DNA of 64,000 nt from Planctomycetota bacterium (GCA_965228735.1 OZ245838.1:4672001-4736000), one strand, 5' to 3'. Positions 30,569-50,819 are shown, counted from the stretch's first letter. Notes: generated by a model not told the origin, from the sequence alone. Numbers and translations are program-made.

Positions 30569-30642
30569 GGGCCCTTAGCTCAATTGGTTAGAGCCGGTGT
30601 CTCATACACACTTGGTTGCAGGTTCGAGTCCTGCAGGGCCTA
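30569..30642 (+). tRNA. tRNA with CAT anticodon (likely Ile2, possibly elongator Met); CCA not encoded
   Basis: Acceptor GGGCCCT/AGGGCCT; D arm GCTC-AATTGGTTA-GAGC; anticodon arm GGTGT-CTCATAC-ACACT; T arm GCAGG-TTCGAGT-CCTGC. Confidence 0.93.
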
Positions 30643-34436: not shown

Positions 34437-34830
34437 GACTGCTCCTTTTTCGATAGGGAAACCACATGGCAAGGCTCTGCCTCGAGGCGTCCTCGAGGTC
34501 AGTGCAGTCACTCCTGCCGTCGGCCCGCTCATGCGGTCTCTTTCCCCCGGCGGTCGCACCGTATCGCCGGAATCGATGTCAGCAACTCCCTCGTCCGGGG
34601 GGCGCCTCGCTCCGCCGATGTAAGTGCTGTCTTTCCATCGCGCACGTCGTGGCGCCCGATTGTCGTAGCTCGTGTTGCGCGAGAGGCGTGCGTCTTGGCA
34701 AGACTCCGGCATTAAGAAAGACACAAGAATCTGCTCAGGAGCGTGCGGACGCGCGGGGTAGGCATCTGCACCCGATCTCGGCGCGAGGGATGCCGCGCAA
34801 GGATTGGGCGACGAAGTCCTGCCGGCGGCC

Positions 34831-36373
34831 CGAGAGCGTCGTCGCCGTTCTTCGTGAACTGGCCTGCGAGTCGAGCGCCGACGCGCCGATGACCGACAGT
34901 GGCTATGCGGTCCCGATGGCGGTCGTCGAGGCGCCCGCGGCTGACTTGGCGAACATCTTCGGCACCGGAAACGTCCCCGGCACCTCCCGGAACAGATCGT
35001 CCTCGCCCAGCTCCCCGTAGAGGTCCATGGTCAGCCGGATGTCCGAGTGCCGCAGGATCTGCTGGATGATCTTCGGGTGGACGTTGAGCTCGATCAGGAT
35101 TCGCGCGCAGCTCTTGCGCAGCGCGTGGAAGTCGACGCGGCGGGTCGTCGCACTGCGCTGGGGCGTGAGGCCGGCGTAGGCCGCGTCCTTGCGCACGATC
35201 TCGGCGATCTTCGAGGGCACCCGGAACACCGGGTCCGTTTCGCGCGCCGGGCCAGCTAGACGCTCCATCTGTAGCTTGCTGCGGCGAGTCCGCATGTCGC
35301 GCAGGGCCGCCGCGACGAAGTCCTGCAAGGGCACGAGAGCGTCGTCGCCGTTCTTCGTGAACTGGCCTGCGAGTCGAGCGCCGACGCGCCGATGACCGAC
35401 AGTGGCTATGCGGTCCCGATGGCGGTCGTCGAGGCGCCCGCGGCTGACTTGGCGAACATCTTCGGCACCGGAAACGTCCCCGGCACCTCCCGGAACAGAT
35501 CGTCCTCGCCCAGCTCCCCGTAGAGGTCCATGGTCAGCCGGATGTCCGAGTGCCGCAGGATCTGCTGGATGATCTTCGGGTGGACGTTGAGCTCGATCAG
35601 GATTCGCGCGCAGCTCTTGCGCAGCGCGTGGAAGTCGACGCGGCGGGTCGTCGCACTGCGCTGGGGCGTGAGGCCGGCGTAGGCCGCGTCCTTGCGCACG
35701 ATCTCGGCGATCTTCGAGGGCACCCGGAACACCGGGTCCGTTTCGCGCGCCGGGCCAGCTAGACGCTCCATCTGTAGCTTGCTGCGGCGAGTCCGCATGT
35801 CGCGCAGGGCCGCCGCGACGAAGTCCTGCAAGGGCACGAGAGCGTCGTCGCCGTTCTTCGTGAACTGGCCTGCGAGTCGAGCGCCGACGCGCCGATGACC
35901 GACAGTGGCTATGCGGTCCCGATGGCGGTCGTCGAGGCGCCCGCGGCTGACTTGGCGAACATCTTCGGCACCGGAAACGTCCCCGGCACCTCCCGGAACA
36001 GATCGTCCTCGCCCAGCTCCCCGTAGAGGTCCATGGTCAGCCGGATGTCCGAGTGCCGCAGGATCTGCTGGATGATCTTCGGGTGGACGTTGAGCTCGAT
36101 CAGGATTCGCGCGCAGCTCTTGCGCAGCGCGTGGAAGTCGACGCGGCGGGTCGTCGCACTGCGCTGGGGCGTGAGGCCGGCGTAGGCCGCGTCCTTGCGC
36201 ACGATCTCGGCGATCTTCGAGGGCACCCGGAACACCGGGTCCGTTTCGCGCGCCGGGCCAGCTAGACGCTCCATCTGTAGCTTGCTGCGGCGAGTCCGCA
36301 TGTCGCGCAGGGCCGCCGCGACGAAGTCCTGCAAGGGCACGAGAGCGTCGTCGCCGTTCTTCGTGAACTGGCC
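34831..36373 (-). repeat. 503-bp tandem triplication of the integrase 3' end
   Basis: Identical units with stop codons at 34903, 35406 and 35909; bounded by the 34-bp repeat CGAGAGCGTCGTCGCCGTTCTTCGTGAACTGGCC at 34831, 35334, 35837 and 36340. Confidence 0.95.
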
Positions 36374-37162
36374 AGCCAGGCGCACGCAAGGCTTGTTGCC
36401 GGTGAGTGTCAGGTCCTCCCAGTGGATCGACGCGCACTCGTTGGCGCGGAAGCCGGTCGTCAGCGTGAACCAGTAGAGCACTTGCCGGTCACGGACCGCC
36501 TCGCCGCCGTCGTGCGTGGGCGTTCCGCCGAGCACGCGTTCTTCCTCGAACCGCGCCCAGGCCGCCTCGACCAGGTTCTCGGCTTCTTCGAAGCGAAAGC
36601 CGACGCGCCGGAAGACGCGGTGCTTGTCGCGCTTCGGCGTGCGCACGCGCAGGCGGTGGAAGGGGTCGCGGTCCCAGCGTCCCGTGCGCTCGAGCCACCG
36701 GCCGAAAGCGCGGAGTGCCCCGGCGTGATGGTCGCGCGTCTTCACGCTGCGCTTGCGGCGGATGGCCGCGAGGAAGCGCTCGACGTCAGGCAGCGCGATC
36801 GACGGGATCGTGGCCACCTTCGCGAACGACACGAACGCTCGGATCTGTCGAATCGACTCACGCACGTAGCGCGGGTGGCGGTCCTCGGCCTCGAGGTTCG
36901 CCTTGTAGTCGTCGACGAGCTTGCTGATCGGCATCGTGCGGAACTCGGCGTAGCGGTCGACCTCGCCGAGCTTGGCCTTCTCGACCTCGCGGAGCTTCTG
37001 CGCCAGAGCGTCGCGAGCGATGCGAAGGTCCTTCGTGCGGGCCGACTTGCGTCGCGTGACGCCGGATGCGTCCTTGTAGACGTAGCTCCAGTAGGGCGAA
37101 CCGGGGCGCTTGTAGGGATTCCCGCGCCAGGCGTTCTCGGGGCTCTTCTTCACCCGGGTCAC
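35909..37162 (-). CDS. Phage-type tyrosine integrase (about 417 aa)
   Basis: N-terminal arm-binding-like domain; TGFRANE (R), TKNG (K), FHALRKS (HxxR), LRHSDIRLTMDLY (H, Y). Confidence 0.92.
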   Translation of the reverse strand: MTRVKKSPENAWRGNPYKRPGSPYWSYVYKDASGVTRRKSARTKDLRIARDALAQKLREVEKAKLGEVDRYAEFRTMPISKLVDDYKANLEAEDRHPRYVRESIRQIRAFVSFAKVATIPSIALPDVERFLAAIRRKRSVKTRDHHAGALRAFGRWLERTGRWDRDPFHRLRVRTPKRDKHRVFRRVGFRFEEAENLVEAAWARFEEERVLGGTPTHDGGEAVRDRQVLYWFTLTTGFRANECASIHWEDLTLTGNKPCVRLAGQFTKNGDDALVPLQDFVAAALRDMRTRRSKLQMERLAGPARETDPVFRVPSKIAEIVRKDAAYAGLTPQRSATTRRVDFHALRKSCARILIELNVHPKIIQQILRHSDIRLTMDLYGELGEDDLFREVPGTFPVPKMFAKSAAGASTTAIGTA

Positions 37163-42393: not shown

Positions 42394-42927
42394 TCAGCGG
42401 CTGAGGATCTTCATCACGATGAGCGCGCCATCGTTCTCGTAGCCAGCTTCCGCCGCCGCAGCGAGTTGCTCACGGACCCATTGATCATCGAACAGACGCC
42501 ACCCACGCTCGCGAAAGTGGACCTCAAGCCCTGTCCGATCCGTTGAACGGGCGATCTTGCCTGTCGCGAGGCACAGAGTGACCGTCGGATCACGGCTGCA
42601 CATCCCGATCGAAGTGAGCTGGCTAGCTAGATTCGATAGCACGACGTCGCGGAGCTTCGAGTCAGTGAACAGCTTGAAGCGGTTCGGGTCGCGGAACTCA
42701 CCGTCGTTGAACCGCACGCCGTGCGAGTCGAAGTACGACTTGCACTCGACGACCAGCAGCTCGTTCGTCGCGCCGCGGTACGCAACGACGTCGATCTCCC
42801 ACCGTGGGGATGACGGACGACCGATCGCGACCTTCTGTGCCTTCGACAGCTCGACCTTCACGCTGGTGTCGGTCCAGTAGCCCTCGCGGCGGAGAAGCAG
42901 AGCGATCAGAGACTCGAAGGCGTCCAT
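42394..42927 (-). CDS. PD-(D/E)xK restriction-endonuclease-fold protein
   Basis: FE..I..LLRREGY, EIDVVAY, LLVVECKSY. Confidence 0.75.
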   Translation of the reverse strand: MDAFESLIALLLRREGYWTDTSVKVELSKAQKVAIGRPSSPRWEIDVVAYRGATNELLVVECKSYFDSHGVRFNDGEFRDPNRFKLFTDSKLRDVVLSNLASQLTSIGMCSRDPTVTLCLATGKIARSTDRTGLEVHFRERGWRLFDDQWVREQLAAAAEAGYENDGALIVMKILSR

Positions 42928-42946
42928 GTCAGGGCGTCCGATGCTC

Positions 42947-43501
42947 TCACGCGGGGCCAATGAGTGTGATCGGCTCCTCGTAGTGCCCCTTGACCTCCTC
43001 TGCGCTTGTCGCGTCACCCGTGTTCGCCGCGAGCAGGATTAGTGGTCTCCCGGGGTTGGCGTTGCAGACTTCTTGGACTGCATCTCGCAGATCGGCGTAG
43101 GTTTCGAACTCCGCGTGGGTTCCGAAGTAGGCCGCAAGAACGCGTAGTTGGGTCTCGACGACGAGGAGCTTCCACGCGGCGTACTTAACCCAGTCCTTCC
43201 CTTTCTTGCTCTCGGTCTCGGCGACCATCAACGGCGGGCCCCACGGTTCGTCTTGGTCCCAGACCATGACATCGATGGTCAAGTACTCGGAGTAGTCTTC
43301 GCTGTCCCGGTTCTTGATGTGCGCGACCTCGAGGTTCTTGTGCGAGAACACCTGCTTTCCGACCTCGGCCAACGCGCTAGTGACAACTGGCGTCCACGCC
43401 CTGTTGCCGAGCCACTTCTTCGGTAGCTCTTCCTCGGTTGCCAGGTGCTTGAAGAACATGGCCCCGACCTCTTCGGCGTTCGCTTGGCGCGTTTCCTTCA
43501 C
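42947..43501 (-). CDS. Hypothetical protein, possible PD-(D/E)xK fold (start uncertain)
   Basis: EYLTIDVMVW...PLMVAETES..., followed by WKLL.V. Confidence 0.55.
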   Translation of the reverse strand: MKETRQANAEEVGAMFFKHLATEEELPKKWLGNRAWTPVVTSALAEVGKQVFSHKNLEVAHIKNRDSEDYSEYLTIDVMVWDQDEPWGPPLMVAETESKKGKDWVKYAAWKLLVVETQLRVLAAYFGTHAEFETYADLRDAVQEVCNANPGRPLILLAANTGDATSAEEVKGHYEEPITLIGPA

Positions 43502-43627
43502 GGGAAAGACGATAGCGCGCGTCGCGAATTGCGTCACGCCATGCGTGGCCACAGCGCGGCGTGAGCGCGCCGCCACCTGGTGCTAGCGACAAGGCACGGC
43601 CTCGCGGGCTTCGGCTAACCTCTTCTC

Positions 43628-43849
43628 TCAAGCCATTCGCGCACGCGCTTCTGCCTCGGCGTCGCCGCGATCGGCGAACAACGTCAGGTTCCGGCCGCAC
43701 GACAGCCCGCCGCGAAACTGCAGCTCGAGGTCGCGGAGCGAGGTCTCGAACAGGATATCGATGAGCTCGCTGTGATGCGTCGGGTCGACGACGGCCCAAA
43801 TCCGGTCGGAAGGGCCGAGCCGCATCGATCTCGCGTCGTTCCCGCTCAC
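43628..43849 (-). CDS. Small hypothetical protein
   Basis: GTGA overlap with the upstream gene; plausible composition. Confidence 0.55.
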   Translation of the reverse strand: MSGNDARSMRLGPSDRIWAVVDPTHHSELIDILFETSLRDLELQFRGGLSCGRNLTLFADRGDAEAEARARMA

Positions 43850-44322
43850 CGCGAGCCCTCGACTGCCGCCTGCAGCACTGCAATCGCCTCCCGCATCGCC
43901 GCCCGCAGCCGGTCGGCCTCGGCACGACTCTCAGCTTGGACTTGGTCGGCGAACTGGCGAACTAAGCCTTCGACGTCCATTGAGGGGGCTGCGGCCCTTG
44001 GGCGGCGCGTGCCGCGCTTTCTCGCCGGGTGCGCTGCTTGTTCCGTGCTCGCTGTAGCGGCGCCCTGTTGCTGCGACAGGAGGCGTCGCGCCGCTTTGAC
44101 GCTCGCCGCCGTGATCCGGGTGCCGTGCAGGGCGGCCTGCGCCTTCGCGTCATCGAGGGAGATCGCGGGGTTTTGGGTGAGGATGTGGAGCGCGACTAGG
44201 ATCGGCTCACGGACTTTCGGGTAGCGCGACTTCAGTTCGGTGAACTGTGCGGTCCAGGTGTTGGCGGGGGATGCGGGGGGCGTTTCGGTCGCGGATTCAA
44301 CCGCAGCTTCTGTCGTCGTCAT
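43846..44322 (-). CDS. Hypothetical helical protein, possibly DNA-binding
   Basis: Ala-rich, basic linker and C-terminal coiled coil; coupled to the 73-aa gene. Confidence 0.6.
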   Translation of the reverse strand: MTTTEAAVESATETPPASPANTWTAQFTELKSRYPKVREPILVALHILTQNPAISLDDAKAQAALHGTRITAASVKAARRLLSQQQGAATASTEQAAHPARKRGTRRPRAAAPSMDVEGLVRQFADQVQAESRAEADRLRAAMREAIAVLQAAVEGSR

Positions 44323-44490
44323 TCGAGTCTTGCGGGGTAGAGCGGGTTTGGCGGAAGCCTGCGGAGTGCATGCTCCGGCTGGCGAATGAGGTTCCGCCGA
44401 GCCATTGCATGAACGCTCAGCGTCCGCCCCATCATCAAGTCGTTCCTGCGGGATTGTGCGGGAACCCCCAAGTGTCAAGGACCGCCTGAT

Positions 44491-44624
44491 CGGAGCCACC
44501 CCAGTTCGGCCAAACGGAGCCACCTCGCGAGGCCGGTTTCGGGTTGGCACAGAGCGTGGTCACCGTTCGGCACGAACGCCCGATCGCGTCCGGCACGAAT
44601 CGCGCTCAGTTCGGCCAAACGGAG
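44491..44624 (+). repeat. Cluster of short direct repeats in non-coding DNA
   Basis: CAGTTCGGCCAAACGGAG at 44502 and 44607; CGGAGCCACC at 44491 and 44515; CGGCACGAA twice. Confidence 0.7.
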
Positions 44625-44754
44625 TCGCGAAAGCCCCTGCCCGGTTATCCGCGGCGGCGATTCCAGTTTGGCCCGGGAAACCGCGCGGTTCGACGGTCGC
44701 GGACTTCCGGCGCTCGGCGCCCACCGTGCGCGCCTCAGCCTAACGACAGTTAGG

Positions 44755-46068
44755 TTATTCGAACTCGGAGTGCGGCGACCTGCCCGGCAAGCTCGGACAT
44801 CGACTCGCGACTCGGCACCAAGGGTAGCTAGCGGTTGCGGGATCGAAGTCGCGAACGACGTAGACTTCATCGAGTTGCCGCAGCGATTCGAACCCTGTGC
44901 TCCGAGCTCTATCGATGAACTCATCCCAATCGACAAACGGCTCGGACGTGTGGACAACGAGCCATCTTTCAGCATAGGGCTCACGATCAATCGTGAACGG
45001 TTTGCTGTCCTTCACCTGGATGAGACGCTCCACTTCGTGATGTAGGTCAGCAGCGCTCCAAACCCTCACCTGTTCCGAGTGGGTGGTGAGCGCATCGAGG
45101 CGTTCGGCAGCAGTTTGGGCGGCCTGCATCGCCTGATAGCGCTCCCGCGAGCGCGGGATGTTGCGCTCGATCAGCTTCTGGTCGGTCAGTTCGACGACTT
45201 CGAACCCAATCAAGCCACCGCATTCGTCACGCCCAAGAACATCAGGAGGCGTCTGCGGCTTGGTCTCGACACGGGCCTGGACAGATCGCACTTTCCGCAC
45301 ACCCGCAGAGTTGAGTGAGTCTGTCAGGTCGCGGACGACTCCCAACTCGACGAGCTTCTTGTCGGGCCACGCACGGCCGCCGCCTGGCACCAGCATTCTG
45401 GGGCAGCGCCGGGCGCTAGCGCAGATTTCGCTGTGATCCTGAATGAGGCGGTGGACCCTCGACCCCAGGCCAAAACCCAGTCGGCTTGACAGATTCGCAG
45501 CGCGGACTGCTACCTGGCTAGCAGATGGGAGCGGCTCTAGGTTCACTTCGATCACGCGCTCCGACAACGCTGCGACAAAGCCAGCTTCGAAGACGGCGCT
45601 TGTGCCGCCGAGCTCGACCGCGACAGCTTCGATGTTCAGCGACGTCGTTCGCGGCAGGTTTGGGAAAATGGGACCTCGAACTAGTTGTCGGCGAAAGGCC
45701 CATGTGTCGCGCAGCGGCCACAGATCGAACGCCACGCCATCCGCGATGGCCCGGACACCACCAAATGCCGTGTGAGAAACTGCCTGAAGACCGCAAGCAC
45801 GAACCAGCGAATCGAGCTCGGTAGGACTTTCTACGTCCACCGCGATATCGATATCGCGCGGCTTGGCGTGAGCCCCCGAAAGGACGGCGTCTCGGACTAG
45901 CCCCCCAAGCACGAAGCCTCTCGTGCCGGATTGGTTCAACTCGTTCGCCACGACGTGAACGAGGCGCGCCGCTGGGGTTTCCTGCTCCAACCACAGGTCG
46001 AAACACCTACGAATCCATGCAGGATCAACCACCACGGATCTCCTGGTGTAGACGACAAGCGTAGCCAT
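44755..46068 (-). CDS. Nucleotidyltransferase (polyA-polymerase/CCA head-like) fused to a PD-(D/E)xK-like domain; start may be a GTG near 46035
   Basis: GFVLGGLVRD...PRDIDIAV, FGG.R, FDLWPL; C-terminal half has PPD...IGFEVVEL; overlaps the dGTPase stop codon. Confidence 0.65.
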   Translation of the reverse strand: MATLVVYTRRSVVVDPAWIRRCFDLWLEQETPAARLVHVVANELNQSGTRGFVLGGLVRDAVLSGAHAKPRDIDIAVDVESPTELDSLVRACGLQAVSHTAFGGVRAIADGVAFDLWPLRDTWAFRRQLVRGPIFPNLPRTTSLNIEAVAVELGGTSAVFEAGFVAALSERVIEVNLEPLPSASQVAVRAANLSSRLGFGLGSRVHRLIQDHSEICASARRCPRMLVPGGGRAWPDKKLVELGVVRDLTDSLNSAGVRKVRSVQARVETKPQTPPDVLGRDECGGLIGFEVVELTDQKLIERNIPRSRERYQAMQAAQTAAERLDALTTHSEQVRVWSAADLHHEVERLIQVKDSKPFTIDREPYAERWLVVHTSEPFVDWDEFIDRARSTGFESLRQLDEVYVVRDFDPATASYPWCRVASRCPSLPGRSPHSEFE

Positions 46069-47401
46069 CCGTCATTCCACACACATGATCCGTGACGAGC
46101 TGAAGCCGTAGATACTCCTCGGGCAGGCCGCCTCCCCAGTTCTTCTCAAAGACTCGCCGGTAGTTCTCGGAGATCAGGCCGTAAGCGCGGGTTGCAATCC
46201 CTTCCCGAATCTTCCGGTCTGGAGCCCCAGGACCGGCGTGCGCTGCCCCCATCCAGAAGAAGTCCATGAGGTTGCTGATGACGCGCCGACCGAGCAGTTC
46301 CAGCTTGACCGTTTCTGCACTCGGGTAGACGTGCGTTCTGGCGAACTTCTTGCACTTGTCGATCAACTCACCCTCTTCCGTGCCGTCCAGCAACTCGCCA
46401 TGGAATCTGCCCTCGACGATCTCTGACCGAATCTCTTGGAATCTTCGACACGCCGCCTCAGCCGCCTTCGCGATGAACTTCACGCGAAAGAACTGGGAGA
46501 GGGCCTCCTCTAGAGCTTGGCCGGAGAGGTTGCTTGCATGCTTCTCGATGTATTGACGCGACTCGCTGGCGAGCTTCTCCCCGATCGCGGACGTGGAGAT
46601 TGCCGCTTCGACCGCTGCCCATGACGTGACGGCCTTCTTGACGCCGTCTTCGATATCAACCACTGAGAAGCAAATGTCGTCAGCCGCTTCCATGAGCAGC
46701 GTGAGCGGATTCCTGGCACCGTCAGGAACATCCGTGTGCTCTCGCACTTTCGCCACGAGTTCCGCCTCGGACTGAAAGAACCCGGGCTTCTTGACAGCAT
46801 GCAGCTCGCCAAGCCCGTCCGACGACGCAGCATACTTTTGCAGCGCCGACATGGTGGCACAGGTCAGGTTGAGCCCGTCATCTCGAGCGAGAATCTGCAG
46901 GCGAGACACCAACCGGATCGTCTGAGCATTCCCTTCGAAGTTCTCGAAGTCAGTGCGATGGGGGCCCGAGAGATTCTTGATCTGGTCATCTCCAGCGTGC
47001 CGAATGAACCAATCGCGAATCGCTCCTTCGCCAGCGTGTCCGAAGGGCGGGTTCCCCAGGTCGTGCAGAAGGGCGACTGTCGCGACAATGGTCTCGATCG
47101 ATCTAGCGGCCTGTGCGTCAACCCGTCCCTCGCCTTCCTCCGACGAAGCGACGCAGCGAGCCAAGCCACGGGCAACCGACGAAACCTCCATCGAATGGGT
47201 CAGGCGTGTCCTGACCGCATCCGTGGGGTCCAAGGGAAAGACCTGAGCCTTGTCCTGGAGCCGCCTCACCGGTGAGCAGAAAACAGCCCGCCCGTAGTCT
47301 CGATCGAACGGAGTCCGTCCAACGTCGTCGGTCTGGTCGGGATCGCCGTCGGGGAGATCGGCGATGCGAACGGCTGACAGCAGCTTGTCCCAAGTCATCA
47401 T
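46025..47401 (-). CDS. dgt: dGTP triphosphohydrolase (HD domain)
   Basis: RRLQDKAQVFP, RTRLTHSMEV, LLHDLGNPPFGHAGE, FEGNAQ, EAADDI, GMTD.YA. Confidence 0.93.
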   Translation of the reverse strand: MMTWDKLLSAVRIADLPDGDPDQTDDVGRTPFDRDYGRAVFCSPVRRLQDKAQVFPLDPTDAVRTRLTHSMEVSSVARGLARCVASSEEGEGRVDAQAARSIETIVATVALLHDLGNPPFGHAGEGAIRDWFIRHAGDDQIKNLSGPHRTDFENFEGNAQTIRLVSRLQILARDDGLNLTCATMSALQKYAASSDGLGELHAVKKPGFFQSEAELVAKVREHTDVPDGARNPLTLLMEAADDICFSVVDIEDGVKKAVTSWAAVEAAISTSAIGEKLASESRQYIEKHASNLSGQALEEALSQFFRVKFIAKAAEAACRRFQEIRSEIVEGRFHGELLDGTEEGELIDKCKKFARTHVYPSAETVKLELLGRRVISNLMDFFWMGAAHAGPGAPDRKIREGIATRAYGLISENYRRVFEKNWGGGLPEEYLRLQLVTDHVCGMTDGYACRLHQEIRGG

Positions 47402-47569
47402 CGAGAAGCGGCGCTCCACTCCGCTCGACGTCACATCGGCGACGCTCACTCTGTGGCGTGGCCCTTCGTCGTTCTATCGGGAACGGCCAAGAACCCGCCA
47501 ACGACAGCCGAGAATGTCCGTTGGCTCGCACCGGAAGAACACCCGCAGCCTCAGCCACCCCGGACGGGA

Positions 47570-47950
47570 TGGGCGACCCTCGGTCGGAGGGTTATGTGAA
47601 CGCTAACCTCGTGGTGCAACTGAAGCAAACGGCGTGCGTTCTGATGCGTCCACCACCCTCGAAATCGGTTTCAGATTCTGGGCGTCCAGAGTCTCTCAGC
47701 CCCGGTGACCAGGCGAACGCTTGCTGTGCGCCAGTGGTTGTGACCGACGCAGGCCGAAGGCAGCGAGCGCTCGGACCAAGATCGCCCTGGAGGTAGGTCC
47801 TGCGGCCACCCGCGCCCAAGTCAGCCTCTCGTCGGCTCGGCCCTGGCTTGCTCCCGTGAACGAAGGTAGGAACGGAGTTGCTTCCCCGGGAAAGGCACGT
47901 CGGCAGAACTCCGAGGTCCTTTCGATGCCCTTTCGGGGTAGTTGTCCGGA
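47570..47950 (+). ncRNA. Putative structured ncRNA upstream of the reverse transcriptase (boundaries approximate)
   Basis: Helices seen by eye: 47673-81/47686-94, 47709-16/47782-90, 47718-26/47761-69, 47817-24/47843-50, 47873-79/47907-13, 47861-66/47918-24, 47926-30/47936-40, 47611-16/47651-56. Confidence 0.55.
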
Positions 47951-47962
47951 TCAGCATCCACC

Positions 47963-49873
47963 ATGGCCCAGAAGGACAACCAGCTCTGGAACGAACTGCT
48001 CGACATCAGGGAGCTGAAGAAGGGGTGGCATCAGGCTCACCACGAGTATCGGCGCGACTTCGCCGAAGATCCGTTGCATGTCGATGCATACGCCGCTGCG
48101 CTCGACAGGCACCTCGCCGACATCCGCCATCGGCTGAGTCGTGGCCGCTATCGACCTCGGCCAGCCCTTCGGTGTGAGGTCCCGAAGGGGCCTCTGGGGT
48201 ATCGCCCCGGGACGGTGATCGACATCGAGGATCGCGTCGTTCTGTATTCCGCGATCCGGCAGATCGCACCCGCGATCGACGAGCAACTCTCGGATTCCGT
48301 GTTCAGTTGGCGTCTCAAGAACCCGCTCCCGCGGAGCGACTGGATGTTCAAGGACACCACCATCGAGGACATGCCGTATCTCAAGAGCCGAACGGTGTCG
48401 AACCACATCGACCAGTTCGAATACTGGCTCTCGGCGTGGCCGGAGTTTGATAACGCCGGGCGAGCGGCGTTCACCGAGAAGGGGCATCGTTTCATGGCGA
48501 CTTGCGACATCGCCGCCTACTTCGAGAACATCCACCTCGGGATACTCCGTGACAAGCTGATGCAGTGGGTCCCGATCGAGCCGCGCATCATCAACCTCAT
48601 CGTGACGTGCCTGTCCTACTGGTGTCCAAGAACACCAAGCGGCGGGAACGAAGCACGCGGGATTCCGCAAGGGACCGGCGTTTCAAGTTTCCTCGGCAAC
48701 GTCTTCCTGAAGGGCCTGGATGACCGGCTCGAAGAACTCGCCAAGCAGTGCGAAGCGGACTACCAGAGATACATGGATGACGTTCGCTTCTTCGCCAAGC
48801 GACGCGAGGATGCTCGGCGTGCGATCCTGATCATGGAACGGACGTTGCGTGAACTGCATCTAAACGTGCAGTCCGCGAAGACCAAGATCCTCGACGAAGA
48901 CTCGGGAGAGATTAGCGAGGCGCTTGTGGATCAGCGTCTGGACGACATCGACGAGATGGAAGACGAGATTCGGGCGCGAGACGAAGACGACGAGGCTGCG
49001 AAGCGTGGCTTCCTAGCGAACCTCAAGCGCCTGGAAGGACGACAGTCGCGGAGCGACAGGCAGGCCATCAAGGCGGCGAGGAAGCCTCTGACTGGCCTCA
49101 CGTTGAGGCTGTTCAAGCGGTGGGTATCGTGCCACAGGTTGCTTGGCTCGCACGACTACGTGAAGCGGCTTCAGAAAGAGGTGGAGCGTACCTCGGACGC
49201 CAAGCTGACGAGCATCATCATACGCACGGCTCGTGACTTCCCCTCCCTACGGTCGATCGCGGGGTGGAGCATGAAGTTCATCCACAGCGAGCTGAACGTG
49301 TTCGCTCACCAGGAAGCGGAGTTACTTCGGGCGATTCGGAATCTCGCGCGGGTCCCCGAGGACGCCGCTGACCACGCTTGGAAAGTCCTGTTGGACACGG
49401 ATGCAGACCCATACCTCAGGATGCAGGCGGGGTTCCTGCTGTCGAGGACGGAGTTGACGAAGCAGCGCCTTAGCACGGTCGCGAACCGCTACGACCAGGA
49501 AACGGACTCGTTCGTGTCGCCCGTCTGGTGTCTCTTGCTGATCCAGCGACGGAGGCAGAGCGAAGTGCTGTTGGCAGACATGATGTCCGATCCCGTTGAC
49601 CGCGTCAGAAGGCTGGGGTGGATGTTCTACCGAGCTGCCAAGGACGAGGCGTGGTGTCGGAAACAGCTCGACTACGTGTTCGGCCCGGTGCGCGCAGCGC
49701 GCCTGTCCGGCTACATGCCGATTGTCTGGGCTGCGGCAAACTGTGGGACACAGGCGGTCCAGCGTGCCCTATTGGAAAAGGTCAACGTCGCGAAGGCGGC
49801 TTGCCTGCACGTTGATCTGCGTCCAACGCTCGAGGCGATCCAGGCACGATTGGAACGGGCTGCGACCGCGTAG
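47963..49873 (+). CDS. Reverse transcriptase, UG/Abi (DRT)-like, with long alpha-helical C-terminal region, 636 aa
   Basis: Y.P......VPK....RP, CDIAAYFENI, GIPQG, RYMDD, L.....KT; about 300-aa helical C-terminus; no retron VTG or NAxxH, no DGR SQ motif, no group II maturase or intron domain V seen. Confidence 0.9.
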   Translation: MAQKDNQLWNELLDIRELKKGWHQAHHEYRRDFAEDPLHVDAYAAALDRHLADIRHRLSRGRYRPRPALRCEVPKGPLGYRPGTVIDIEDRVVLYSAIRQIAPAIDEQLSDSVFSWRLKNPLPRSDWMFKDTTIEDMPYLKSRTVSNHIDQFEYWLSAWPEFDNAGRAAFTEKGHRFMATCDIAAYFENIHLGILRDKLMQWVPIEPRIINLIVTCLSYWCPRTPSGGNEARGIPQGTGVSSFLGNVFLKGLDDRLEELAKQCEADYQRYMDDVRFFAKRREDARRAILIMERTLRELHLNVQSAKTKILDEDSGEISEALVDQRLDDIDEMEDEIRARDEDDEAAKRGFLANLKRLEGRQSRSDRQAIKAARKPLTGLTLRLFKRWVSCHRLLGSHDYVKRLQKEVERTSDAKLTSIIIRTARDFPSLRSIAGWSMKFIHSELNVFAHQEAELLRAIRNLARVPEDAADHAWKVLLDTDADPYLRMQAGFLLSRTELTKQRLSTVANRYDQETDSFVSPVWCLLLIQRRRQSEVLLADMMSDPVDRVRRLGWMFYRAAKDEAWCRKQLDYVFGPVRAARLSGYMPIVWAAANCGTQAVQRALLEKVNVAKAACLHVDLRPTLEAIQARLERAATA

Positions 49874-49946
49874 TTGCCGCGGATCTCTGCTTTCGTCTCC
49901 GCGATGCGTCGCTCGGATGGTGCAGCTTTCGGGGCCGCCTCGCGAC

Positions 49947-50819
49947 CTACGCCCCAACCGCCGCCCGCAGCCGCCCCCTGTCCACCCGCGCGTAGATCGC
50001 CGTCGACACGACCGATGCGTGGCTCAGCGCATCCTGAACTAACCGCAGGTCGCCGGTCTTCGCGAGCAGCCCGCAGGCGAACGTGTGCCGCAAGCTGTGC
50101 GCGCTCTTGCCGCGGATCTCTGCCTTCGTGAACCAGTCCGAGATGCGTCGCTGCGCGTGCCGCGTGGACACTCGCCTCCTATCCGCGAGGAATACCGGTC
50201 CCGATGCTCGATCGCCGACGAATCCGCGCAGTTTGCTGGCTAGCGCCTTCGGCACGAGCACCGTTGACGGCCGGTCGTTCTTCGCACGTCGAACCGTGAT
50301 CTCGCCGTGCTCGAGGTCGAGGTCCTCGATGTTGAGCGCAAGCGCGCTGCCTATCCGCATGCCAGTGCCGAGCAGCAGCTCGATGAGCATCCGGTCTCGC
50401 TCCGCATGCTCGCCCGTGGCCGCGGCGAGCACTGCGAGCAGCCGCTCATGCTCGTCGGCGTGCAGTGATTTCGGAGGGGGCGGGGAGCATCGAGCTCGAC
50501 GCAGAAGCCGTGCGGGGTTCGCGGCGACCAGTCCGGCGTCGTGAAGATGGGCGCAGAAGCAGCGGACGCTCGTACGCATCGCGTTGAGCGACGTGTTCTT
50601 CTTCGAGCCGCCGTGGCTGCTGACGCGCGCGGCGTCGTCAGCGAAGAACTGGGCGAGCAACTCGCGGCTCAGGCACGCGACCTTGCGTTCTGCGTCGCGG
50701 TCGTGAAGCCAGGCGATCAGCGCGGTCACGTGACGGCGGTACTGGTTGATCGTGTGCGGCGAGCGGCCGTCGGCGCGGAGCTGCACCAGGAAGGCTTGGA
50801 GGGCGTCTTGGAGGTCCAT
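49947..50819 (-). CDS. XerC/D-like tyrosine recombinase (290 aa)
   Basis: SAM-like N-terminus (RS.HTI..YR); TGMRIG, AKN, SAHSLRHTFA, LSHAS...TAIY. Confidence 0.9.
   Translation of the reverse strand: MDLQDALQAFLVQLRADGRSPHTINQYRRHVTALIAWLHDRDAERKVACLSRELLAQFFADDAARVSSHGGSKKNTSLNAMRTSVRCFCAHLHDAGLVAANPARLLRRARCSPPPPKSLHADEHERLLAVLAAATGEHAERDRMLIELLLGTGMRIGSALALNIEDLDLEHGEITVRRAKNDRPSTVLVPKALASKLRGFVGDRASGPVFLADRRRVSTRHAQRRISDWFTKAEIRGKSAHSLRHTFACGLLAKTGDLRLVQDALSHASVVSTAIYARVDRGRLRAAVGA

What the first reader, a model, noticed from the sequence alone, without database searches (positions are those of the whole stretch)
44755..47401. dGTPase overlapping a nucleotidyltransferase-nuclease fusion gene
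Seen: an intact HD dGTPase whose stop codon overlaps a 437-aa ORF. That ORF has a minimal polyA-polymerase/CCA-like head (GGLVRD..PRDIDI) joined in frame to a PD-(D/E)xK-like domain (PPD...FEVVEL). Known: stand-alone dGTPases defend by depleting dGTP, and NTases make signalling nucleotides or modify tRNA in several defence and toxin systems. Inference: a two-gene system in which a nucleotide-pool change or NTase product controls the dGTPase or the nuclease. I do not recognise this pairing as a named system.
Basis: partly seen in the sequence, partly recalled or inferred. Interest (0 to 1): 0.7.

Follow-up and report, generated by a model that had tools for sequence, protein, structure and literature searches.

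The report
Clover defence operon with nuclease-fused CloB
This is a variant of the published Clover anti-phage system (a dGTP-destroying enzyme with a partner enzyme that likely makes its off-signal), in which a shortened partner is fused to a predicted nuclease that elsewhere is a separate gene and is probably a passenger.

Summary
Both genes and the in-frame fusion are real; short-read contigs from three studies carry the stretch unchanged. The pairing is not unnamed: it is Clover (CloA dGTPase + CloB nucleotidyltransferase; PMC12265719). The dGTPase's best solved relative is Salmonella CloA (284 bits against 187 for the next), with all 6 catalytic and all 8 dTTP-sensing residues. NTase homologs have a dGTPase upstream in 29 of 32 genome loci. 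Two things differ. First, the NTase is fused to a PA4535-like PD-(D/E)xK domain. Only one other fused protein was found (71% identical). The domain is otherwise a stand-alone gene, twice found directly before the same element gene that follows it here, so the fusion likely arose when Clover landed in front of it. Its predicted active site is intact. Second, both proteins belong to a small subclade: CloB is about 205 aa, lacks the usual tail and changes three conserved motif residues, while CloA changes the two residues that read the second thymidine of p3diT, and 6 of 9 members also lose R29. A signal other than p3diT is possible but untested. Verdict: new variant of a known system, modest interest.

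The parts
46025..47401 (-). cloA-like dGTPase, 457-458 aa; H68, H112-D113, H121/E124, D240; dTTP-site residues R46, D60, Q168, K254, S410, N412, T443, Y446; p3diT pocket with G36 and S74 in place of D37 and N75 (numbers from ATG 47398)
46039..46044 (-). AGGAG ribosome-binding-site-like motif inside the end of cloA, 7 nt before GTG 46032 (predicted translational coupling)
   Evidence: sequence
45433..46032 (-). short CloB-like nucleotidyltransferase domain, about 200 aa; GG43-44, D60-I-D62, D103; class II NTase head and neck, no body or tail
45412..45432 (-). in-frame junction; the NTase's last helix runs into the N-terminal helix of the nuclease-like gene; 6 residues longer than in P0003
44755..45411 (-). 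PA4535-like PD-(D/E)xK domain (E241, P275-D276, E290, E293, K353 in 437-aa numbering) with a disordered C-terminal tail
43846..44322 (-). 158-aa element gene without a family; its homologs directly follow the stand-alone nuclease-like gene in G021 and G434, marking the resident module the operon joined

Best explanation
This is a Clover-type anti-phage operon: the CloA-like dGTPase is predicted to be switched on by rising dTTP during infection and to drain dGTP, while the CloB-like domain likely makes a short oligo-deoxynucleotide (p3diT or a close variant) that would keep it off in uninfected cells; the C-terminal PD-(D/E)xK domain is likely a formerly separate neighbouring gene that became fused and works, if at all, independently of the switch. 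Shown here: gene order, homology to CloA, conserved catalytic and dTTP-site residues, folds of both halves, rarity of the fusion, and the stand-alone state and synteny of the nuclease-like gene elsewhere. Taken from the Clover paper: dTTP activation, p3diT inhibition, toxicity without CloB. Inferred: that these hold for this protein, and the order of events (Clover inserted in front of a resident gene and the stop was lost).
For: Best PDB hits 9P8S-V at 277-284 bits, against 187 for the next, 185 for E. coli Dgt and 87 for SpdGTPase; the paper's CloA residue numbers match that chain minus 2 (mapped by hand). Catalytic residues 6 of 6, dTTP site 8 of 8, p3diT site 7 of 9; E. coli Dgt has 4 of 8 and the genome's housekeeping dGTPase 3 of 8 dTTP-site residues. 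A dGTPase lies upstream of the NTase homolog in 29 of 32 GTDB loci, 3 of 3 viral loci, 2 of 2 plasmid loci inspected out of 9 hits and G471. The short-clade profile matches the NTase of a Phaeobacter operon whose dGTPase scores 467 bits to CloA (hhalign 98.7%, E 2.7e-16). Fusion as passenger: 1 of 150 listed representatives spans both halves, 144 are NTase only and 5 nuclease-like only; the nearest relative with context (G471) has an unfused 215-aa NTase; none of 9 metagenome and 5 genome loci of the nuclease-like gene has an NTase or dGTPase, and 2 of those 5 put it directly before the 158-aa gene as here. CloB homologs are also found fused to Fic and TIR domains (P0044, P0132).
Against: The characterised Salmonella or E. 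coli CloB sequence could not be fetched, so CloB membership rests on proxies. D37 and N75, which read the second thymidine of p3diT, are G and S, and the NTase changes three motif residues, so the product may differ. The fusion is old enough to have diverged to 71% identity, yet both fused copies keep 29-30 of 30 conserved columns against 115 of 174 variable ones (Fisher p 0.0003): the domain is under selection. No internal ribosome-binding site precedes its first Met. Many nuclease-like loci are on contigs of 1.4-3 kb, and 4 of the 9 are near copies. 960 of 1110 representative hits were not listed.
Confidence: 0.68

Rival explanations
1. A Clover subtype with a changed signal: the trimmed CloB makes a nucleotide other than p3diT (another second base, sugar or length), read by a co-adapted CloA pocket. 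This concerns the whole subclade, fused or not.
For: Eleven short NTases form one side of a branch (SH-aLRT 97 with motif columns removed). The Phe of LPxTT-F-LN is lost in 11 of 11 but kept in 160 of 168 others; the Arg before FGG is kept in 1 of 11 against 144 of 168; the Asn of ENP in 1 of 11 against 152 of 168. The Phe aligns to the RRD motif B of CCA enzymes, linked to ribose recognition (PMC2910056, passages). Nine close dGTPases form a matching branch (99, trait columns removed): G37/S75 in 9 of 9 against 18 of 111, and R29 replaced in 6 of 9 against 0 of 111.
Against: Position 75 varies widely and G37 occurs in 24 of 111 other CloA homologs, so these are not unique. This protein keeps R29, R34, R38, F41, N181, Q311 and R314. 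The changes belong to one clade each, so they are single inherited events and not independent co-variation. Only 2 pairings are seen in DNA; 3 more are inferred from equal source and contig length. A distant Xanthomonas CloB still made p3diT (PMC12265719).
Confidence: 0.22
2. The fused domain is a coupled second effector: a nuclease held in check by the NTase domain or its product and released with CloA, giving nucleotide depletion plus DNA or RNA cleavage.
For: Predicted active site intact and matching the PD-EXX-K variant described for PA4535 (PMC3424549, passages); purifying selection in both fused copies; the Clover supplement lists ParB-like/HNH nuclease and patatin among effectors beside CloB (figure text).
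Against: Only 2 fused sequences; a stand-alone copy (P0004) nests with them (99/99), and their forming one clade is neither shown nor rejected (AU p 0.41); the nuclease-like gene never appeared as a separate gene in a Clover locus (0 of 32; G471); no sensor domain is present.
Confidence: 0.1
3. The fusion is an assembly or annotation artefact, or a very recent read-through.
For: The junction lies where unfused relatives stop, and the domain is a separate gene elsewhere.
Against: Three short-read contigs carry the frame with no difference; P0003 is fused at 71% identity.
Confidence: 0.02

Closest known systems
Clover (CloA dGTPase + CloB NTase, p3diT); Yamaguchi et al., PMC12265719; PDB 9P8S-V
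   Same: Gene order and overlap, HD and HE catalytic residues, all 8 dTTP-site side chains, 7 of 9 p3diT-site residues, DxD..D NTase motif, position in a defence island.
   Different: NTase about 200 aa instead of about 270, without the QxxHYG tail and with three motif changes; D37G and N75S in the inhibitor pocket; C-terminal PD-(D/E)xK domain. A word search of the preprint found no 'fused', and 'fusion' only for purification tags.
Stand-alone anti-phage dGTPase (SpdGTPase type, PDB 9P8W; NCBIfam NF041026)
   Same: HD dGTPase fold and predicted dGTP depletion.
   Different: 87 bits only; 183 bits against a cut-off of 400; has a partner NTase and an allosteric dTTP site.
PA4535 / DUF1780 (PDB 1y0k), PD-(D/E)xK superfamily
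   Same: Best structural match (Z 10.1); PD-ExxE with a Lys on the second core helix, like the PD-EXX-K variant in PMC3424549.
   Different: 18% identity; no Pfam DUF1780 hit for any of 7 family members; function of both unknown.
Class II CCA-adding enzymes and bacterial poly(A) polymerases
   Same: Head and neck fold, GGxxRD and DxD motif A.
   Different: No body or tail; RRD (motif B) replaced by TT-S and EDxxR (motif D) absent; not a tRNA-processing enzyme by these marks.

Membership tests
Clover | Two-gene operon, dNTPase followed by NTase | tested here: met
   homologs 29 of 32
Clover | CloA HD motif, HE dyad, H69, D242 | tested here: met
   6 of 6
Clover | dNTPase of the CloA lineage rather than housekeeping or Sp type | tested here: met
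   284 bits to 9P8S against 187, 185 and 87; tree groups it with NTase-linked dGTPases
Clover | dTTP allosteric site (R47, D61, Q172, K256, S418, N420, T449, Y452) | tested here: met
   8 of 8; controls 4 of 8 and 3 of 8
Clover | p3diT pocket (R29, R34, D37, R38, F41, N75, N181, Q311, R314) | tested here: inconclusive
   7 of 9; D37G and N75S; T25 not scored (gapped loop); the housekeeping dGTPase also has 6 of 9, so the set is only partly diagnostic
Clover | CloB [D/E]h[D/E]..h[D/E]h active site | tested here: met
   D60-I-D62 and F-D103-L, invariant in the clade
Clover | Direct homology to the characterised Salmonella or E. coli CloB | tested here: inconclusive
   Sequence not obtained; proxy NTase of Phaeobacter operon matches at 98.7%
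Clover | Located in a defence island | tested here: met
   Integrase and Prim-Pol element at tRNA-Met with UG21 RT and restriction-like genes
Clover | dTTP activation, p3diT synthesis and inhibition, octamer, phage protection | not testable with these tools
   needs biochemistry and phage assays
PD-(D/E)xK superfamily | Restriction-endonuclease-like core fold | tested here: met
   pLDDT 84.5 model; Z 10.1 to 1y0k, Z 5-6.6 to several nucleases; acetyl-CoA carboxylase domains also score 6-7; Foldseek not significant
PD-(D/E)xK superfamily | Catalytic acidic pair and lysine | tested here: met
   E241, D276, E290, E293, K353 conserved in at least 80% of 13 stand-alone homologs and in both fused copies; equivalence to PA4535's residues is from motif order and secondary structure, not a residue-level superposition
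PD-(D/E)xK superfamily | Nuclease activity | not testable with these tools
   needs an assay
DUF1780 (PF08682) | Pfam model hit | tested here: not met
   0 of 7 members
Class II CCA/poly(A) polymerase | Motif B RRD, motif D EDxxR, body and tail | tested here: not met
   PolyA_pol 18.8 bits under cut-off 23
Stand-alone anti-phage dGTPase (NF041026) | Score above curated cut-off | tested here: not met
   183 against 400

The most novel reading that the evidence does not exclude
A distinct Clover subtype in which a trimmed CloB with remodelled nucleotide-binding motifs makes an inhibitory signal other than p3diT, read by a co-adapted CloA pocket, and which in this lineage has gained a tethered PA4535-like nuclease as a second effector.
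Probability: 0.2. Interest if true: 0.62.

Novelty: new variant of a known kind. Interest (0 to 1): 0.33.

Why it matters
As a plain Clover member it extends the system to a Planctomycetota lineage that the preprint's text and figure labels do not name, which is minor. The short-CloB subclade is a ready test of whether p3diT is the only Clover signal: one co-expression and LC-MS experiment, as in the paper, would show it. A new inhibitory nucleotide would add to a very short list (p3diT, oligo-dA, 2'3'-c-di-AMP). The fusion also offers a handle on the uncharacterised PA4535-like nuclease family.

Tried and rejected
Assembly artefact: rejected. CCA-adding enzyme or poly(A) polymerase: rejected on motifs and size. 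Conserved three-part system: not supported; no nuclease-like relative in IMG/VR by pattern scan; no NTase match in the phage collection. Link to the divergent UG21 RT: no RT hit in the NTase loci with about 4-kb flanks or at G471, so treated as an island neighbour. Getting the characterised CloB: plasmid and phage searches with the dGTPase, E. coli blastn with proxy DNA (only housekeeping dgt), a motif scan of viral contigs and 301 genomes around G497 all failed. Nicastro et al. 2023 is not held, so what it says about fusions is unseen; the Clover Supplementary Table 1 of CloB homologs was not in the archive read and could already list fused or short forms; only the preprint version was read. 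Pfam, PADLOC and NCBIfam give no family for the C-domain; ESM Atlas best score 0.76, a lead only. No RNA holder listed. Promoter and terminator scans were at chance level; Rfam found only the tRNA. No complex prediction and no read-laying of the more distant runs was obtained, so domain contact and the junction in near relatives stay open. Earlier findings: three look-ups, nothing shown. Paper searches: CloA/CloB/p3diT gave two relevant papers; Clover + dGTPase + Planctomycet + nuclease fusion (3 of 4 terms) gave none.

Full report
Observation. The minus strand holds a dGTPase (47401-46025) and a 437-codon frame (46068-44755). The second gene most likely starts at GTG 46032: AGGAG lies 7 nt upstream, the 425-aa form and not the 437-aa form is in the public collection, and nine close homologs start there. 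The overlap is 8 nt. Logan contigs of X4, X5 and X7 span 43000-50500 in one piece with no difference; X10 covers it in five pieces with one substitution. They may be the same strain as the source, but they exclude an assembly indel.

Setting. The genes lie in a lower-GC island starting at tRNA-Met 30569-30642, whose 3' end is repeated at window coordinates 75088 and 135013. Nearby are a tyrosine integrase, a Prim-Pol/DUF3987 protein, a restriction-like gene and a UG21 reverse transcriptase. The host is inferred to be Planctomycetota, because the same-family genome G471 encodes P0158, labelled Planctomycetes.

The dGTPase is CloA-like. Its best solved relatives are 9P8S-V (277-284 bits), ahead of 2pgs (187), E. 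coli Dgt (185) and SpdGTPase 9P8W (87). I read the results, discussion and part of the methods of the Clover preprint PMC12265719 (parts 1-3 of 8), further passages and the figure text of its supplement. It lists the CloA entries as 8P9S-V, apparently a transposition, since its residue numbers match chain 9P8S minus 2 at the positions I mapped by hand. Mapped onto this protein, 6 of 6 catalytic and 8 of 8 dTTP-site residues are kept, and 7 of 9 p3diT-site residues, with D37 as G and N75 as S. E. coli Dgt has 4 of 8 and the genome's own housekeeping dGTPase 3 of 8 dTTP residues; the latter has 6 of 9 p3diT residues, so that set is less diagnostic. NCBIfam's stand-alone anti-phage dGTPase model scores 183 against a cut-off of 400.

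The N-half is CloB-like. It folds as the head and neck of class II CCA/poly(A) polymerases (pLDDT 97; E 2e-10; Z 16) but lacks RRD, EDxxR, body and tail. It belongs to a family with 1110 representative hits for the whole protein, 150 of them listed. With an NTase-only query, 32 GTDB loci were fetched: 29 have dGTPase sequence upstream on the same strand (28 adjacent, one 2.5 kb away; some broken or cut), and 3 have none, one of them at a contig end. The same holds for 3 of 3 viral loci, both plasmid loci inspected of 9 hits, G532 and G471. The characterised CloB could not be fetched. As a proxy, the NTase of a Phaeobacter operon whose dGTPase scores 467 bits to CloA matches the profile at 98.7%. 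The system is rare in this lineage: 2 of 339 genomes of the class, the window's own included.

The C-half. The model (pLDDT 84.5) has no significant Foldseek hit but matches PA4535 at Z 10.1 and several nucleases at Z 5-6.6, with unrelated carboxylase domains at 6-7. Passages of PMC3424549 describe PA4535 as a PD-(D/E)xK protein with motif PD-EXX-K, the lysine moved to the second core helix. Here P275-D276, E290, E293 and helical K353 are conserved. No Pfam, PADLOC or NCBIfam family matches.

Does the fusion recur? Barely. Of the 150 best representatives, one (P0003, 71%, 321 aa, N-terminally incomplete, context unseen) spans both halves, 144 are NTase only (median 267.5 aa) and 5 are C-domain only. 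The 90%-cluster searches added stand-alone forms only. The C-domain was in 0 of 32 NTase loci. No NTase or dGTPase was found in 9 metagenome loci of the C-domain (many short, 4 near copies) or in the loci of 5 other genomes out of 300 in the order. In G021 and G434 the stand-alone gene lies directly before a homolog of the 158-aa gene that follows it here. The simplest history, which is inferred, is that Clover was inserted in front of a resident gene and the frames joined. CloB homologs are also joined to Fic and TIR domains. Against pure neutrality, both fused copies keep 29 and 30 of 30 conserved columns while sharing 115 of 174 variable ones (p 0.0003). A stand-alone copy, P0004, nests with them (99/99); a single origin of the fusion is neither shown nor rejected (AU p 0.41).

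A subclade worth noting. The nearest NTases are 200-232 aa and form one branch of 11 rows (SH-aLRT 99; 97 with motif and tail columns removed; quick trees on 86-87 of 179 rows). They lack the tail with QxxHYG, and lose the Phe of LPxTT-F-LN (11 of 11; kept in 160 of 168 others), the Arg before FGG (kept in 1 of 11 against 144 of 168) and the Asn of ENP (1 of 11 against 152 of 168). The Phe aligns with motif B, tied to ribose recognition in CCA enzymes (PMC2910056 passages), and ENP lies at the level of motif D, the base template (PMC7947759 passages). The nine closest dGTPases form a matching branch (99, trait columns removed, 60 rows): G37/S75 in 9 of 9 against 18 of 111 others, R29 replaced by W or F in 6 of 9 against 0 of 111. 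Two pairs are seen in DNA (window, G471) and three inferred from equal contig length. This is one clade, not independent co-variation, and this protein keeps all pocket arginines. The paper found p3diT also from a distant Xanthomonas CloB.

Mechanism. Most likely (0.68): dTTP-activated dGTP depletion restrained by a CloB-made oligo-deoxynucleotide, with a passenger nuclease-like domain. Altered signal 0.22, coupled nuclease effector 0.10, artefact 0.02; the first two rivals can occur together. All activities are inferred from homology.

Novelty. The pairing is published (PMC12265719; review PMC13434031, passages). In the searches made and the preprint text I found no CloB-nuclease fusion or short-CloB subtype, but Nicastro et al. 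2023, the journal version and Supplementary Table 1 were not seen. New variant of a known kind; interest 0.33.

Noticed in passing
window 47963-49873 (+): UG21-type reverse transcriptase (PADLOC RT_UG21, 396 bits), divergent from cloA across about 560 bp with no Rfam hit. UG21's defence role was called inconclusive in PMC9226505 (passages). No RT was found beside other Clover loci.
   Followed up: partly
window 30623; also 75088, 112800, 135013, 137828 in window coordinates (beyond the window, in G000): The 3' end of tRNA-Met recurs several times downstream, with paralogous integrases: a tandem array of integrated elements of over 100 kb.
   Followed up: partly
window 34790-36382: About 503-bp tandem repeats at 98% identity that duplicate the 3' end of the integrase gene; two overlapping ORFs share the same C-terminal sequence.
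   Followed up: no
window 43846-44322 (-): 158-aa gene without a family, with a paralog about 2.47 Mb away in this genome and homologs in G021 (duplicated domain) and G434; may be a marker of mobile elements in this family.
   Followed up: partly
P0044 and P0132: CloB homologs fused to a Fic domain (663 aa) and to a TIR domain with a long C-terminal region (739 aa); contexts unseen.
   Followed up: no
L047:3548-4765: CloB homolog with an insertion of about 125 aa between GGxxRD and the DxD motif, containing an HD-like LLHDIGH stretch.
   Followed up: no
L031:1269-2081 and L032:3749-4672: CloB homologs without a dGTPase upstream in the held DNA (1.3 kb and 4 kb), like the 'single NTase' class in the Clover supplement.
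   Followed up: no
P0278: A 1447-aa database protein that concatenates cloA, the fusion and three downstream genes with small deletions; probably a spliced gene call on bacterial DNA, not a real product.
   Followed up: no
window 42394-43576 (-): Two overlapping restriction-endonuclease-like genes downstream (weak Mrr_cat hit for the 207-aa one; none for the 170-aa one).
   Followed up: no
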